NCBI RefSeq assembly: GCF_002571385.2
Contig: NW_019217945.1
Coordinates: 140,911-204,910, forward strand
Source of the DNA: Stylophora pistillata
Lineage: Eukaryota
Length of the DNA stretch: 64,000 bases
Direction of reading: 5' to 3'
Shown: piece after piece, positions 39,001 through 45,000 of the stretch
Layout of the letters: every line of letters starts with the position of its first letter
Position numbering within the stretch: the stretch's first letter is position 1
Made by a program: the position numbers

Positions 39001-42000
39001 TATCGTGCAGTTGGGGTGGTCCGGCTGACAGATAAGGGGCACGGTAAGTCTCAAAGTGAATTCCCTGATTTTATGATCCTCTGAGGTGACAATGAACGGA
39101 GGTTCAACCTGTCAGAAATGATGACATCATTTGGTTACTGGCGGGTACTAAGTAGAGAGGACGCTGAAATGGCAGTGCCATAATCTATACTCGAGCCAAG
39201 TCGCCCACCATCCGGAGCTTATCCGGGTTTCTTTGGCATGAAGCAGCTAAGAGTGTCACTACTCCCCCCTGGATGGGATGCTAGTCCATCGCAAGGTTAC
39301 CCCTCTGTTTAAAGAATATTATAAAAATGACAAGCAAAACGAGAAATAGAAATTTTGGTATCTGCTCAACTTATTGTAGGAAAGTAAAGCAAAGGAGAGT
39401 TGATATATGTTTTACATCGTTAAAAGGTCCATTTTTCTACGTCCAGCCGAATGCCCTGAAAATATGTCACATTCTCTTTGATTATGACTTTTTACTGAAA
39501 CTGGTCGAGAGGGCCTACAAAGCTTTCCAGAAGGCTCACAAGCCCAATTTACCACCGTAAGTCTAAGCCAAATATGGGAGAAGAGTTAGACTTGCCTTAA
39601 TTCCAACGAAGAAATTGTCGCTGGAGAAAGTAGGACTTGTTCGTTCTGGACTCTCTAAGAAAAATGCCATCACTTCACAAATGATCTGAGGATAAACAAA
39701 CAATACTCATAACTATAAATTAACACAACTGCTCATAACCACAAATTCATCTTAAAATTAACACAGAGCAGCACTAACTCTGTCACCGAGGTAAAACTCA
39801 GCTGACTTGGTGCTCATCACCACCGCGGTCTCTTCAGTCCTGTTGGTCAGCAGTACCAGTTTCCCAGGCTTCCCACCCAAGAAGCTCATGAGTTTATACC
39901 ACGTGACTTTGTACCCAACTTTATAGGGTCCTGGAGCCAAGATATCGTACGTACACAGAAGATGGATTGATTCACTTGCCAGGATTTTATCCGGGGGGAT
40001 TACTGGTGTTATCTGTGGGGGGCCATCTAGGATGGGATATTGTTCACGAACTGTGAAGAGATATTTAAGATGATAGTATTTCATGCATAGACAAGCAAGA
40101 AAAAGTTATGTGATATCACGACAATGTAGGAAGTTTAAGAAGCCAAACAGTTCTATTTTACAAATATGTTAGGAGTTAATTATACACTTACACACACGCG
40201 TGGATGGACATAAACGAAAGGCATCTTCAATATATAAACACTACCACGAACGGCACAGCGAAGTCCCGAAAGACCTACTGAAACGTTTTAGCACCTTACA
40301 CCTTCACAAGTTCGATTGATTGGTGAACGAAATGCTTTTCATCAGAGACCTAAAACCCACTCTGAACGTGCAAAGCGATTCCATTCGCGCAAAAGTATTT
40401 GTATAATTAGCTCCTAACATATTTATGCTAATTTAGTGTTACACCTTGCCGCAAACTTTGTAATTTTTATTTCTCCTTGACAATGGCGTCATGAAGACAC
40501 CGAAACGTCGGTTTTTATTGTTGGTTTTTGCTTGTCTTTGCATTTCCAAATCTTTATTGATAAGTATTTAATGAAGATAACTTTATATTCCGTGTTGTAA
40601 AATAGAACTGCTTAACTTCTTAAAGTTCCTACATTGTCGAGATATCACATAACTTTTTCTTGTTGCGCTCTACATTAATGTATTTTCTCGTCTAACCCAC
40701 AGCTGACGAATTTCTTACCTCTACATTTTGGTGCATATCCTATTTTACCGGGTCCACAAGGAACTTTGCCGGCTGGAAAAAAAAAAAAAAAACACAAGTC
40801 CTTTCTTAAGCATATTTTTGGCTTTTCGCTCGCTTAAGCTAAAATGAAACCCTGGACAACGTGCGGTGTTGTCGCTGGGTGAGTGCACAGCGGAGCTGCA
40901 CTGATTTTTACTTTTTTAGGGAATCTATATCTTTAAGGCAGTAGATGCACCCTGTTTGGTCGGTAGATACGTTTAGACGAGAGTATGTAAACACAGAAGT
41001 GAACTTTTTTGGTCTCACGGATGTTTTTTCGGAATATTTAATGTAAGCAAAGATGAATTTTTGTGTTTACATTGCCTCGTCTTAGGTAACATTCGGGAGG
41101 TTGACAAAATACGAGATAGTTTAGCAACCCGAGATACTTCCTTGAGTTAAGTTTGAAAAAGAAACATTGAATAACACATCTATAAGGGTGGAATTGCTTG
41201 CCTGACACAGTTCAAATTTTAATCACCTGATTTAGCGCAGTAAGCCGAACAATCGTCCGTACTCTGTAAACGATAAACAACGAAGCCACCACAATGAATC
41301 ACGTGAACAGGTAACCGCCACAAGCAACAAAACCTGTCCACCCCCTTCCACGCTACACATGCGCTACCATTCCTTTCCTCTCCAAACTCGGGATGTCCCG
41401 CGGGTGGCAACCATATCTGAGCATGAGTACCACACGAACCAATTTCAGGGCAGCTCGTAGGAATTTCGGCGGGAATCCCATCAAGCTCCAACTTGTACCA
41501 GGCCTCCTGTAACTTGTTATCACACAGGGGAAGGACAGAGTCCACTTGATTGGACTGCGCACGCGTAGGAATGTCAAGAATTTTGTGACCTGATGGGTGA
41601 CATTGTGGTCTGTCTGCGGTAAAAAATAATGACGACAAGTTTCTGTGATGCAGAAATGACGTCGCTGAGGAGCGAGTGCGTGTCTAAAGCGGATGAACTG
41701 ATATCTCGGTCACCTTTTGTTTTTGCTTGGTATGTGCTGTTGGCCTCTCGAAACCTAGACTAAACTATTCTATGGCCACTTATAGACCCCATCTTAATTA
41801 CTTTTGGGCAAATGTAATTTTCGCAATCCCAACTTAACCTTATAATGCCATTTAAAACAAAACACGACTTTAAACACGGTAACAACTTTCAAGCCGGAAA
41901 TCTTCCCATTTCTAAATCCCTACTTGACAGAATTTTTTTACCTCGCAATTCCCGAAATTGTGCGACCCCTTCCTGGTACCTCAACTGAAAATGTAACCCC

Positions 42001-45000
42001 ATTAAAGTCAATCCAGTTGGGAAATGCGATCCCATTCAGGCACACCCCCATTGGCCTATTATTAGGAAGTGCTCCCTCCCCCGCTCCCTGGGGAAATAAA
42101 GTAACCTTAATGATATATTATGTATTGTTCAGCTTTTAATAATCGTAATAATAGTAATAAAAATCATCTTCCTCCCACCTCCAGCTGTGAAGAGTTTTTG
42201 AATCCATTGAAGCACATCAGGGTCAATTCTTGAAAATAACGCGACGTCTCTGGTAGCGGAAGAACAAGTCTGTCCGTATGTGTAAACACCGACTACAAAC
42301 CAATGACCGTCCTGTTTGACGACAACTGGACTTCCTTGGTCAGTTGAACAAATTCCTTTCTTTCCAGCTACGGCACACCACGATTCATCTAACAATTTTC
42401 CCATGCTCCTGTCCCTGAAACTCCGTTGACAATCTCGGCCAGCAGTTAATAAAACGTCACTTTGGAGGAGCGTTTTATACTGGGAGCTTCGCCCAGATAA
42501 GTAACCCCATCCCGTAATCTTTCCGAGTAGACGGTTCGAGACCTTGTTAGTCTCAAAATCTGGTAGTTTCGCGTGAGATACAGGATGATCATCGGGCAGC
42601 ATAACTTTGCGTGCAAGGTACAGCAGACCGACGTTACCTGTCGAAGCTGAAGCGTTATACTTAGGATATACAAGCGCTCTCAGCACCGGCGCTGTGTCTT
42701 CGCCTGATGCTTGGAGATCGACATGATGATTTCCAACTCTGATGAACACCGTCGAATGATCGCTATCGTCATTGCGCTTTAGGTTCAATTTCTCTTTCAC
42801 CAGTCTAGTACACAAAGCTGATGATAAAATCCATCGCTCCTGAACTAAAACTCCGCTACATTTTACAGAACTCACGAACACATGCCAAGGAAATCTTTCT
42901 CCCAAGGGATGATGCGTTTGATTGCGTGAATTGAATGAGTTGTGTACGTCGTAAGAGGATGTTATCGCTAGAAAATACAGAGCCAACAAGATGTCGAAGG
43001 CGGCCATCGTACTTGGCATCTCTGTAATACGTGTTCCGCTTCCGACTTTATGCTGACGGCTTATGCCCTTAATGGTTTTATTATTTACCACACGGGGTAA
43101 TCGGTAAATATTTGTGGGTCGTCACTGGCCATACCGCTAATCGGCTCTCATTACCAAAATAACAGCTTTTTGCAAAAGCGTACACTTACTTGATGGATGT
43201 GGAAAGTGATATGTTTCCTGGCGGCAGATCAAGTAAATCTGTAGAACATTTGCTTGCTATTTGAAGTTTATTACTAATAACAGGAAAATATTCTTAAAAA
43301 ATTACTTCTCTTGAATATGTCTGCAATCGACAGAGAATTAAAAACTTCAACGTCATACCTTTCGCATTAAATCCATTTAGCAATCGAAGGTGACCACGAA
43401 ACTACAAAGGGTCACGAAAGGTCAAAAACTCCTTGTCACGTATTTTCATTTCACGCACAGAAATACCTTGAACACGAAGGCGTTTGAGGAGATCTTCTTC
43501 ACTCTGAATTCAACAATGACGTGACAAAGAAGGAATTTACTCGCACGAAAATGTTTTTAACCATGACAGTCCAAAGATCAAATCAACAAGATTTACGATT
43601 AAAGTGTATATGACATGAAATTTTTTTTTTCTTTTCTGCTAGTTCGATATATAAAACAAACGGTTCGAGAGTTAAAAATCGTTGAAAATAATTATAAACA
43701 CATAGTTTTCGTTAAACTACGCGCTAAGTTGGCTTAAAATTTGTCCCCTCGAACGCGCGGCCGAAAGGTCACGTGAACTTAACGTGTGACGTCAGGTTGT
43801 TTGACTCTCATTAGACCACTTTCACAAGTGGCTGCCGGATTAAAATTCTTTTGTTTACATTTTTGTTTACTTTTGCCCAACAATAGAAGCTGTACGAATA
43901 CCAGCAACACACCGATGCACCAGTTTCCTGTAAATCCAACAGTGAGAACCCAATGGGTGAAATTCGTGCAGCGGCACCGAGTTGATTTCGGCGAACCTGT
44001 TGCCAAACATGCCTCGTTGTGTTCGGCTCACTTTGAGCAAAGTTGTTACGAGGGCAGCTTGGCATTTTCGCTGGACGGTATGACGCAGATAAAACGGAAC
44101 AAAGTTCTTATCAAGGGCTCTGTTCCAACAAGACATGCAGTTCTACCAGAAGGTCCTGAAGTTCTGACAGATCGCAAAAGGCGACAGGTAAGCGTTTTCT
44201 CGTGATCTCCGATCATAAACATTAACATGTGTAAGTTTTTCTGATGTAAATAACCTATTCTTTTGGAAGCATTTATGTGTAAAATGTCCGTGTCTAATTG
44301 CGGTTTTGCCGTGCTGAAAGCAAACTGAACTGCTAAAACCTATACCTTAGTGAATCATCAACATGTTCACTGGAGTTTTGAGTATTGATTTATACAAGCT
44401 TTGTGATCGTTTCGAATCCTACACATAATCTTAGCAAAAGCAAGGGTGTCTTGTGCTCGATATATTTTATCAACCAGGATATTTTATGTTTTTGCTGCAG
44501 CTAAGGCGTGATGCCTTTGCAGAGTTTCATGTGTTGGAGGCGAAGAAAAAGAAGGTGGATGAGGCCATGGAAGAATCAATGAGTAACCTTGTAGATGATC
44601 ATGATGATNCAAACAAACAAACAAACAAACAAACTAAAAATGCACTAACATAATTAAATAAATTTATTTATTTTACAGAAGCAGAGCAGGCTAAAGTACA
44701 GATGTCTATCAGTGACAATACCCCAAGCAGCAGTCAACCCACTTCAAGACGACCTTACAATTGCTCAATATGCCAAAAACCATTGCGAAGTCACAAAAGC
44801 CCTTGCAAAAAATAAAGTGACCAAACTTTTTTCACAGGAAGGTATTCTGCATAGTACAATTTTCCTTTTTACTTCAAATTTTCCATGCCTGCATTGTACT
44901 GTACTCATCAACTTACAATATTTGCATTGTACCTACAACAAGGTGAAATTTTAAATGTAGTCAAACTCGTGTGCATGTAGAACCTACGCTGTTTCTGGTT

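What the first reader, a model, noticed from the sequence alone, without database searches (positions are those of the whole stretch)
41227..43019. Dead trypsin-fold domain apparently fused to the N-terminus of a VWDE-like protein
Seen: all three catalytic residues are replaced (H to L in SALC, D to N in GNVGLL, S to Q in TDQGSP) while the ORF stays intact. The domain ends at a phase-1 donor (GGA G|GTGGGA, 42179) matching the phase-1 acceptor of the first VWDE-like exon (41613). No other signal-peptide exon is evident between them. Known: vertebrate VWDE has no protease domain, and serine protease homologues act as recognition or cofactor modules in invertebrate immunity. Inference: a lineage-specific pseudoprotease-vWD-EGF extracellular matrix or immune protein.
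Basis: partly seen in the sequence, partly recalled or inferred. Interest (0 to 1): 0.7.

Follow-up and report, generated by a model that had tools for sequence, protein, structure and literature searches.

The report
Dead protease domain on coral protein
A stony-coral gene for a very large secreted EGF-repeat protein begins with a trypsin-like domain that has lost all its catalytic residues; a public gene model already contains this unusual combination, but nobody has described or tested it.

Summary
On the minus strand, an ORF from ATG 43019 to stop 42131-42129 encodes a signal peptide plus a trypsin-fold domain (Pfam Trypsin E=3.2e-23). His57, Asp102 and Ser195 are replaced by Leu, Asn and Gln.

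The proposed splice, donor 42179 to acceptor 41613 in phase 1, is exactly the junction in the RefSeq protein 'neurogenic locus notch homolog protein 2-like isoform X2 [Stylophora pistillata]'. That protein has 2551 aa and reads ...KLFTAG|DRPQCHPSG. It maps to 18 exons, 43019-29269.

In 31 of 31 homologues, conservation stops at this split Gly codon. The tails after it run 2-188 aa and are unconserved, which looks like read-through into an intron.

Exon 2 encodes a ten-cysteine D8C/D10C domain (GP2 structure 7p6r, E=2.2e-11). An Ig_VWDE domain and an EGF array follow. No VWD domain was detected, and no Notch-specific domain.

No homologue has His or Ser at the catalytic positions (0 of 32 rows each), so the loss is old and the domain is conserved.

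Most likely it is a non-catalytic binding head on a secreted matrix protein. I saw no transcript data. The architecture is a new variant of a known kind, and I found no paper on it.

The parts
42179..43019 (-). Exon 1 of the gene: start codon, signal peptide and the whole pseudoprotease domain; ends in phase 1
   Evidence: ORF. Identical to residues 1-280 of RefSeq protein P0177. Junction resolved uniquely.
42954..43019 (-). Probable signal peptide, about residues 1-22 (MPSTMAAFDILLALYFLAITSS). The conserved initiator may be Met5 at 43007.
   Evidence: Hydrophobic stretch with a 10-residue hydropathy mean of 2.93. Met5 is nearly invariant in homologues. The cleavage site is not predicted by any tool; it is inferred.
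42201..42899 (-). Trypsin-fold (peptidase S1A-like) domain, catalytically dead
   Evidence: Pfam PF00089 E=3.2e-23, residues 41-273. AlphaFold2 model with pLDDT 76.6 and pTM 0.78. Foldseek best hit is chymotrypsin 1gl1_A, E=2.1e-15, TM 0.76 normalised to the target.
42813..42815 (-). Leu codon at the His57 position
   Evidence: Alignment to factor VIIa. This column has no His in 32 of 32 rows.
42633..42635 (-). Asn codon at the Asp102 position
   Evidence: The column holds N 29, D 2, S 1 of 32 rows.
42336..42338 (-). Gln codon at the Ser195 position
   Evidence: The column holds Q 25, R 2, G 2, E 1, N 1, Y 1 of 32 rows, and no Ser.
41614..42178 (-). Intron 1 (565 bp), GT...AG. It contains the read-through tail GGRKMIFITIITIIKS, the stop at 42131-42129, and one ATTAAA at 42140-42135.
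   Evidence: No copy of the intron elsewhere in the window.
41227..41613 (-). Exon 2: D8C/D10C domain (ten Cys, one NGS sequon); a symmetrical phase 1-1 exon
   Evidence: Pfam D8C_UMOD E=6.7e-8, 33.1 bits against a cut-off of 27. GP2 crystal structure 7p6r E=2.2e-11. Cys count.
39596..40050 (-). Exons 4 and 5 (40050-39779, 39685-39596) with the intron between them: Ig_VWDE domain
   Evidence: Pfam PF25776 E=2.2e-6 on the ORF holding exon 4, E=7.3e-4 on exon 5, E=6.6e-14 on P0177.
30567..34053 (-). Exon 16: 1162 codons of EGF-like repeats with a non-EGF insert
   Evidence: Pfam EGF E=3.3e-76 with 19 stretches, EGF_TEN E=1.5e-55. Mapping.
29269..43019 (-). Whole coding span of RefSeq isoform X2: 18 exons, 7653 coding bases, 2551 codons
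   Evidence: Exact mapping of P0177. All 17 introns resolve uniquely, 16 as GT-AG and 1 as GC-AG.

Best explanation
The 841-base ORF is the first coding exon of one large gene, not a gene of its own.

Shown or directly supported:
- The exon supplies the start codon, the only signal peptide in reach, and a complete chymotrypsin-fold domain.
- In that domain all three catalytic residues are replaced (His57 to Leu, Asp102 to Asn, Ser195 to Gln). By my reading of the alignment, Gly193 of the oxyanion hole is also replaced by Thr.
- No IVGG-type activation N-terminus is present.
- The exon ends in a phase-1 donor and is spliced 565 bases downstream to a phase 1-1 exon encoding a ten-cysteine D8C/D10C domain. 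An Ig_VWDE domain, a poorly recognisable middle region and about 1400 residues of EGF-like repeats follow.
- The product is a 2551-residue protein with no recognisable membrane anchor in this isoform.

Inferred mechanism: the dead protease domain cannot cut. It is kept as a protein- or ligand-binding head at the free N-terminal end of a long, stiff EGF stalk. Other inactive S1 domains are used this way (HGF beta chain, haptoglobin, protein Z, arthropod serine protease homologues). It may pack against the adjacent D10C domain. The absence of an activation cleavage removes the usual reason why S1 domains sit at the C-terminus.
For: (1) A search with residues 240-470 of the large EGF exon alone, among proteins of 2052-5000 aa, gave 1 hit of 231 candidates. 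This was P0177, 100% identical and named by NCBI for Stylophora pistillata. Its sequence starts MPSTMAAFDILL and reads ...QKLFTAG|DRPQCHPSG.

(2) P0177 maps without mismatch to 18 exons. Every one of the 17 junctions resolves to a single GT/GC-AG pair. Intron 10 uses a similar GTGGG donor (ACG|GTGGGT).

(3) In alignment A2 (the window plus 31 homologues at 29-99% identity), the residue after the last full codon is Gly in 31 of 31. This fits the split codon G|GT. The next residue is E in 24, K in 2, G in 2, T in 2 and Q in 1. E and K are what a GTGAG or GTAAG donor would read as. After that the tails run 2-188 aa without conservation.

(4) Among close relatives the tails differ by a frame shift. 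HITGSFP in P0010, P0011, P0013 and P0017 and YHRVIS in P0012 and P0016 can be read from one DNA string in two frames. This is my reading of the output with the genetic code. It is what non-coding DNA does.

(5) Exon 2 has no Met and no upstream ATG in frame. No other hydrophobic leader with a phase-1 donor lies between 41614 and 47000.

(6) The domain is under constraint. There are 22 invariant and 32 nearly invariant columns over 32 rows. Six Cys fit three canonical disulfides. Four rows lack Cys224 and four lack Cys252. For P0026-P0028 both losses can be seen in the same rows. For P0032 the pairing follows from its sequence.

(7) The fold is confirmed.

(8) Packing of the pseudoprotease against D10C has weak support only. 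Complex prediction gave a median score of 0.57 (runs 0.20, 0.57, 0.64), and the best of 3 controls was 0.00. The mark was reached by 51 of 78 solved complexes and 2 of 108 mismatched pairs. At 0.60 or under it was reached by only 5 of those 78, and by all 4 mismatches that passed (of 180). The runs agree in at least 0% of contacts, and the partner's pLDDT is at least 84.
Against: - I saw no transcript.
- No other protein joining this domain to D8C, Ig_VWDE or EGF was found. The 'longer' search (519-2000 aa) scored 0 of 1852 candidates.
- Among the best 150 of 5263 hits in the 1.84-billion representative library, every close relative is ORF-sized (188-458 aa), and P0177's own cluster does not appear.
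- 0 of the 7 long hits scanned carry D8C, Ig_VWDE or EGF.
- The ORF-sized homologues seem to come from a gene caller that cannot see splicing. P0001 begins with M where the window has a GTG codon. They therefore neither show nor exclude splicing.
- The donor GTGGGA is not a strong consensus site.
- An ATTAAA at 42140-42135 would allow a short unspliced, polyadenylated form.
- The binding-head function rests only on analogy.
Confidence: 0.72

Rival explanations
1. There are two separate genes. A small secreted pseudoprotease of 296 aa ends at the stop at 42129. The D10C/Ig_VWDE/EGF gene has its own undetected leader exon, and the RefSeq model is a chimeric merge.
For: - All 31 homologues in the protein collections are ORF-sized.
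- No fused form from any other species was found.
- ATTAAA lies at 42140-42135.
- The trypsin fold ends naturally about 8 residues after the WI of the last helix, so the ORF would be a complete domain on its own.
Against: - The tails after the split Gly codon are unconserved, run 2-188 aa and are frame-shifted among close relatives, while Gly is kept in 31 of 31 and a donor-like E or K follows in 26 of 31.
- Exon 2 cannot start translation.
- No alternative leader was found in 5.4 kb upstream.
- The RefSeq model joins the two.
- The ORF-sized proteins seem to come from a caller blind to introns.
Confidence: 0.1
2. Both products are made. The fused long protein comes from splicing, and a short free pseudoprotease comes from retention of intron 1 or intronic polyadenylation.
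For: - The read-through frame stays open for only 16 codons and meets a stop next to an ATTAAA.
- The record is called isoform X2, so NCBI models more than one form.
- P0177 itself ends in a read-through of its last exon.
Against: - There is no selection on the tail.
- There is no direct evidence for a short transcript.
Confidence: 0.15
3. The ORF is a decaying protease pseudogene or relic exon that lies by chance upstream of the EGF gene.
For: All three catalytic residues are lost.
Against: - The frame is open for 330 codons.
- Homologues are 29-99% identical, with 22 invariant columns and conserved disulfide cysteines.
- His is absent in 32 of 32 rows and Ser in 32 of 32, so the loss is old and has been followed by conservation.
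Confidence: 0.02

Closest known systems
Non-catalytic serine protease homologues used as binding modules (HGF/MSP beta chain, haptoglobin, protein Z, arthropod clip-domain SPHs such as masquerade). These examples are recalled, not from a call.
   Same: An S1A fold is kept under selection with the catalytic residues replaced. The domain is part of a secreted multidomain protein.
   Different: In those proteins the dead domain is C-terminal, and in several of them it is still cleaved at an activation site. Here it is the very N-terminus, has no IVGG-type activation motif and no clip, kringle, CCP or Gla partner. Its partners are D10C, Ig_VWDE and EGF.
[quoted passage not shown]
   Same: D8C/D10C near the N-terminus, then Ig_VWDE and a long EGF array. 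The legend of Extended Data Fig. 1 of PMC8930769 lists VWDE among D10C proteins (passages read).
   Different: No VWD domain was detected by Pfam here. Deuterostome VWDE is described with VWD and EGF domains, and the word 'protease' occurs 0 times in the main text of PMC7390686 (passages read). Orthology was not tested.
UMOD/GP2 decoy module (beta-hairpin plus D10C)
   Same: Exon 2 aligns to the GP2 structure 7p6r over chain residues 37-150 (E=2.2e-11). It has ten Cys.
   Different: There is no extra Cys pair for the preceding beta-hairpin and no ZP module. The pseudoprotease domain sits where the hairpin would be.
Notch (the name on the RefSeq record)
   Same: Long arrays of EGF-like repeats, with JAG/DL-type EGF hits.
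   Different: No Notch/LNR, NOD or ankyrin hit in the Pfam scan of P0177. The name appears to come from the EGF repeats only.
Ovochymase-type and polyserase proteins (S1 domains followed by other modules)
   Same: An S1 domain at or near the N-terminus with further domains behind it. These were seen among the long hits.
   Different: Those carry several S1 domains with CUB. They are only 23-33% identical to this domain. 0 of the 7 scanned carry D8C, Ig_VWDE or EGF.

Membership tests
Peptidase S1A / chymotrypsin fold (Pfam PF00089) | Profile match above the curated cut-off | tested here: met
   83.2 bits against 20.6, E=3.2e-23, residues 41-273
Peptidase S1A / chymotrypsin fold (Pfam PF00089) | Two-barrel chymotrypsin fold | tested here: met
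   AF2 pLDDT 76.6, pTM 0.78. At least 500 PDB matches at E<=0.001; the best is chymotrypsin at TM 0.76 normalised to the target.
Peptidase S1A / chymotrypsin fold (Pfam PF00089) | Conserved disulfides 42-58, 168-182, 191-220 (numbering recalled) | tested here: met
   Cys54/70, 197/215 and 224/252 fit these pairs. Occupancy over 32 rows: 32, 32, 32, 29, 28, 28.
Active S1A peptidases | Catalytic triad His57, Asp102, Ser195 | tested here: not met
   Leu, Asn, Gln. His in 0 of 32 rows, Asp in 2 of 32, Ser in 0 of 32.
Active S1A peptidases | Activation cleavage that gives an I/V-V-G-G N-terminus | tested here: not met
   The alignment to factor VIIa starts at heavy-chain residue 10. Residues 1-40 hold no such motif and have low model confidence.
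Arthropod clip-domain serine protease homologues | Clip domain N-terminal to the dead S1 domain | tested here: not met
   No Pfam hit other than Trypsin and a weak DUF1986 in exon 1. The S1 domain follows the signal peptide directly.
VWDE | D8C/D10C domain | tested here: met
   Pfam D8C_UMOD 33.1 bits against 27. GP2 7p6r E=2.2e-11. Ten Cys.
VWDE | Ig_VWDE domain (PF25776) | tested here: met
   E=6.6e-14, 52.1 bits against 28.1, on P0177. Exon-level hits.
VWDE | von Willebrand factor type D domain | tested here: inconclusive
   No PF00094 hit on any exon or on P0177. The candidate region is split over small exons, and the whole-protein scan also missed Trypsin and D8C, so sensitivity was poor. 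A search of the joined region was left out.
VWDE | Array of EGF-like domains | tested here: met
   EGF E=3.3e-76 with 19 stretches in exon 16; more in exons 13, 17 and 18.
VWDE | Orthology to vertebrate VWDE (reciprocal best hit or tree) | not tested
Notch | LNR repeats, NOD/heterodimerisation region, transmembrane segment, ankyrin repeats | tested here: not met
   None among the 7 families found on P0177. The sensitivity caveat above applies.
UMOD/GP2 decoy module | Disulfide-stapled beta-hairpin in front of D10C, and a ZP module behind | tested here: not met
   Exon 2 has exactly ten Cys and is preceded directly by the S1 domain. No ZP hit.

The most novel reading that the evidence does not exclude
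The dead protease domain and the D10C domain together form a composite recognition head, with the pseudoprotease taking the place of the beta-hairpin of the UMOD/GP2 decoy module. This head would be an old, conserved feature of a family of giant secreted EGF proteins in corals and their relatives. It would capture a microbial or matrix ligand, or a protease inhibitor, at the tip of a long EGF stalk. That would be a pseudoenzyme recruited for surface defence or for building the skeletal matrix.
Probability: 0.12. Interest if true: 0.6.

Novelty: new variant of a known kind. Interest (0 to 1): 0.4.

Why it matters
Inactive protease domains reused as binding modules are known mostly from vertebrate plasma proteins and arthropod immunity. 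In those proteins the dead domain almost always sits at the C-terminus.

Here the domain is at the N-terminus, needs no activation, and heads a D10C/Ig_VWDE/EGF protein in a reef-building coral. That adds a new architecture and a concrete candidate for studies of coral extracellular matrix, mucus or skeleton. A different VWDE-like protein is listed in the S. pistillata skeletal proteome (PMC7115838, table passage seen).

There is also a practical lesson. The record is named 'Notch 2-like'. Neither its precomputed Pfam list nor my whole-protein scan reports the Trypsin or D8C domains, although exon-level scans find both. Domain surveys based on whole-protein scans of EGF-rich giants can therefore miss such heads.

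Tried and rejected
- Fused relatives of 519-2000 aa: 0 of 1852 candidates scored.
- Fused relatives of any length among the 1.84 billion representatives: none among the best 150 listed. The long hits are multi-trypsin proteins at 23-33% identity. 0 of the 7 scanned carry D8C, Ig_VWDE or EGF.
- P0041 (458 aa) looked like a possible extended form. Its extra 188 residues have no Pfam hit and look like read-through.
- ESM Atlas searches with exon 1 and exon 2 gave only generic trypsin and D8C clusters and nothing on architecture.
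- VWD detection exon by exon found nothing.
- Intron 1 as a repeat or transposon: blastn found no other copy in the window.
- An alternative leader exon: none found.
Accessions, isoform X1 and the other two members of P0177's cluster stayed unseen.
- Literature: 'vwde' with 'cnidarian' gave 3 papers and 'vwde' with 'coral' gave 4. None concerns this architecture.
- 'notch homolog protein 2-like' with 'Stylophora pistillata' gave 0 papers.
- 'serine protease homolog', 'catalytic triad' and 'cnidaria' gave 2 papers, both on wasp venom.
- 'D8C domain' with 'trypsin' gave 3 papers, all on uromodulin.
- 'pseudoprotease', 'trypsin-like', 'EGF' and 'von Willebrand' gave 0 papers.
- Rejected reading, decaying pseudogene: conservation over 32 rows argues against it.
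- Rejected reading, a Notch receptor: no Notch-specific domain was found.

Full report
**What is in the sequence.** The finding lies on the minus strand. An open frame of 330 codons (43121-42129) holds an ATG at 43019 and a TGA at 42131-42129. The 296-residue translation matches Pfam Trypsin at E=3.2e-23 (83.2 bits, cut-off 20.6, residues 41-273). It also matches 302 distinct PDB sequences at E<=1e-5, the best being coagulation factor VIIa. In that alignment SSALC lies over SAAHC, GNVGLL over HDIALL and TDQGSP over GDSGGP. His57, Asp102 and Ser195 are therefore Leu69, Asn129 and Gln228. Gly193 of the oxyanion hole is Thr, by my reading of the same alignment. The alignment begins at heavy-chain residue 10, and nothing like an IVGG activation N-terminus precedes it. 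An AlphaFold2 model built on 32 aligned sequences has pLDDT 76.6 and pTM 0.78, with only residues 1-4 and 11-39 below 50. Its best Foldseek matches are chymotrypsin, activated protein C, factor XIa and thrombin, at TM 0.72-0.77 normalised to the target.

**The junction.** The donor GAG|GTGGGA (last exon base 42179) and the acceptor TTTTTTACCGCAG|ACA (first exon base 41613) are present. Exon 1 has 841 coding bases and so ends in phase 1. The next exon (41613-41227, 387 bases, phase 1 to phase 1) encodes 128 residues with ten cysteines and one NGS sequon. It matches Pfam D8C_UMOD (E=6.7e-8, above the cut-off) and the crystal structure of the GP2 decoy module 7p6r (E=2.2e-11). It contains no Met, and its frame has no ATG upstream of the acceptor. 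I scanned all ATG-to-GT phase-1 candidates of 40-400 nt between 41614 and 47000. Only the trypsin ORF's own start gave a hydrophobic leader. That scan is a hydropathy heuristic only.

**Independent support from a public gene model.** I searched exon by exon. Residues 240-470 of the 1172-residue EGF open frame (34053-30538, which holds exon 16) were searched among proteins of 2052-5000 aa. The search gave one hit of 231 candidates: P0177, 100% identical, 2551 aa, named by NCBI 'neurogenic locus notch homolog protein 2-like isoform X2 [Stylophora pistillata]'. This names the organism of the window, and nothing in the window was taken for human. P0177 starts MPSTMAAFDILL... and reads ...QKLFTAG|DRPQCHPSG, which is exactly the 42179/41613 junction. 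It maps without mismatch to 18 exons from 43019 to 29269, 7653 coding bases in all. Every one of the 17 introns resolves to a single GT-AG pair, or GC-AG for intron 5. Intron 10 uses a similar GTGGG donor, GTGGGT. A Gnomon model is not a transcript, and I could not see its evidence line. It may rest partly on the same phase logic.

**Comparative support.** The ORF has 28 relatives of 238-344 aa (E<=0.001 among 711 candidates), all from unnamed ENA/Logan records. The 1.84-billion representative library gave further single-domain relatives of 188-458 aa. These proteins seem to come from a gene caller that cannot see introns. P0001, 99% identical, begins with M where the window has a GTG codon, and it continues colinear with the genomic sequence. 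I aligned the window's exon 1 with 31 of them (A2, 29-99% identity). I left out P0014, P0018 and P0030, which are partial.
- Conservation is high up to ...KLFTVG (mean majority fraction 0.71 over the last 40 residues).
- The next residue is Gly in 31 of 31, and the one after is E in 24, K in 2, G in 2, T in 2 and Q in 1.
- Beyond that the tails run 2-188 residues with no conservation.
- A phase-1 donor G|GT followed by GAG or AAG would read as exactly Gly-Glu or Gly-Lys.
- Among close relatives the tails HITGSFP and YHRVIS can be read from one DNA string in two frames. This is my inference from the genetic code, and it means indels that are not multiples of three.

All this is the behaviour of an intron, not of a coding C-terminus. 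The exon boundary therefore seems old and shared. I could not check what the exon is spliced to in the other species.

**The pseudoenzyme is old and kept.** Over the 32 rows the His57 column holds L8 F6 W5 S5 R5 K2 A1 and no His. The Asp102 column holds N29 D2 S1. The Ser195 column holds Q25 R2 G2 E1 N1 Y1 and no Ser. Twenty-two columns are invariant, including Asp at the 194 position, and 32 more are nearly invariant. Six cysteines fit three canonical disulfides. Four rows lack Cys224 and four lack Cys252. In P0026-P0028 both losses are visible in the same rows. A decaying pseudogene is excluded for practical purposes.

**The rest of the protein.**
- After D10C come a short 54-base phase 1-1 exon and an Ig_VWDE domain (E=6.6e-14 on P0177; exon-level hits).
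- Next is a middle region of about 650 residues in which Pfam finds nothing reliable.
- EGF-like repeats follow (EGF E=3.3e-76 with 19 stretches in the exon-16 open frame alone).
- No VWD, ZP, Notch/LNR or ankyrin domain was found.

So 'VWDE-like' rests on D10C, Ig_VWDE and EGF. The VWD part is unproven, and the RefSeq name 'Notch 2-like' is not supported. To test for a VWD domain properly one would search or fold the joined middle exons. I left that joined step out, so the point stays open.

**A technical note.** The whole-protein Pfam scan of P0177 lists neither Trypsin nor D8C, and neither does the collection's precomputed list. The exons alone score 83 and 33 bits. Filters that act on the whole EGF-rich sequence probably hide the two domains. 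That is my inference, and it would explain why the record's name ignores them.

**How it most likely works.** Shown: a signal-peptide-like leader, a dead S1 fold, a D10C domain, an Ig_VWDE domain and a very long EGF array in one annotated reading frame, with no membrane anchor found in this isoform. Inferred: a secreted matrix or surface glycoprotein whose N-terminal pseudoprotease serves as a binding head. This would resemble the inactive S1 domains of HGF, haptoglobin, protein Z and arthropod serine protease homologues (these examples are recalled). Active S1 domains normally sit at the C-terminus because activation creates a new free N-terminus. A domain that is never activated is free of that rule, which fits its position here. 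In GP2 and UMOD the D10C domain packs against a short beta-hairpin and presents a glycan to bacterial FimH (PMC8930769, passages read). Here the pseudoprotease stands where the hairpin would be. A co-fold of the two domains gave weak support only:
- The median score was 0.57 (runs 0.20, 0.57, 0.64), and the best of 3 controls was 0.00.
- The mark was reached by 51 of 78 solved complexes and 2 of 108 mismatched pairs.
- At 0.60 or under it was reached by only 5 of those 78, and by all 4 mismatches that passed (of 180).
- The runs agree in at least 0% of contacts, and the partner's pLDDT is at least 84.

I treat this as a lead.

**Against, and open.**
- No fused relative was found in any other species. 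The searches were limited by length windows, by clustering and by intron-blind proteins.
- An ATTAAA at 42140-42135 would allow a short unspliced product.
Synteny in other cnidarians therefore stayed unchecked.
- The stretches of N (8 runs, 1292 bases) were left as they are.

**Literature.** Eight searches found nothing on a trypsin-like or pseudoprotease domain joined to VWDE, D8C or EGF proteins in cnidarians.
- PMC9117669 (passages) describes VWDE as VWD plus EGF.
- PMC7390686 (passages) describes deuterostome Vwde with VWD and EGF-like domains and suggests a matrix glycoprotein. The word 'protease' occurs 0 times in its main text.
[quoted passage not shown] 'Notch' and 'neurogenic' occur 0 times in its main text.

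Supplementary tables, which are closed, may list the present protein.

**Verdict.** The junction itself is already in a public gene model. The dead-protease head, its age, and its pairing with D10C are not described in any paper I could find. I rate it a new variant of a known kind, of moderate interest.

Noticed in passing
P0177 (whole protein) versus window 42132-43019 and 41228-41611: A whole-protein Pfam scan of the 2551-aa record reports neither Trypsin nor D8C, and its precomputed Pfam list lacks them too. The single exons score 83 and 33 bits. Filters acting on the whole EGF-rich sequence probably mask the N-terminal domains.
   Followed up: partly
window 29269-29653 (-) and 28357-28783 (-): Isoform X2 ends by reading on past the last EGF of exon 18 into ...GKIVFSLNKKLRISCLLMLR and a stop. 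Two more EGF-like open frames lie downstream on the same strand (Pfam EGF-type hits). They may belong to another isoform.
   Followed up: no
window 39595-39596 (-): Intron 5 of the model has a GC donor (AAG|GCAAGT). It is the only non-GT donor of the 17.
   Followed up: no
window 43007 versus 43019 (-): The homologues start at the Met that aligns with Met5 (43007), which is nearly invariant. The first ATG, used by RefSeq, is not shared. An AG lies 2 bases before the first ATG, so a 5'UTR intron is possible.
   Followed up: no
window 43783-44202 (+): A THAP-domain open frame (Pfam E=2e-11) on the opposite strand, about 760 bases upstream of the gene's start. It may be a transposon-derived gene.
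   Followed up: no
window 48410-49279 (-): A single-exon rhodopsin-family GPCR frame (7tm_1, E=6.5e-16). A related-looking frame at 50210-50575 had no Pfam hit.
   Followed up: no
window 55877-56128, 59434-59694, 61783-62992 (+): Two nearly identical open frames that read like alpha-tubulin first exons lie 3.5 kb apart (the tubulin reading is by eye and they were not scanned). Further on are frames with Pfam Tubulin E=3.5e-25 and Tubulin_C E=1.7e-7. This suggests a tandem duplicate or a fragment.
   Followed up: no
window 40719-40772 and 41227-41613 (-): Exons 2 and 3 are both symmetrical phase 1-1 exons, and exon 1 ends in phase 1. This is the pattern expected if the head of the gene was assembled by exon shuffling.
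   Followed up: no
PMC7115838, table: Another S. pistillata VWDE-like protein (XP_022810585.1, partial) is reported from the skeleton by mass spectrometry. I did not establish whether it is a paralogue of this gene.
   Followed up: no
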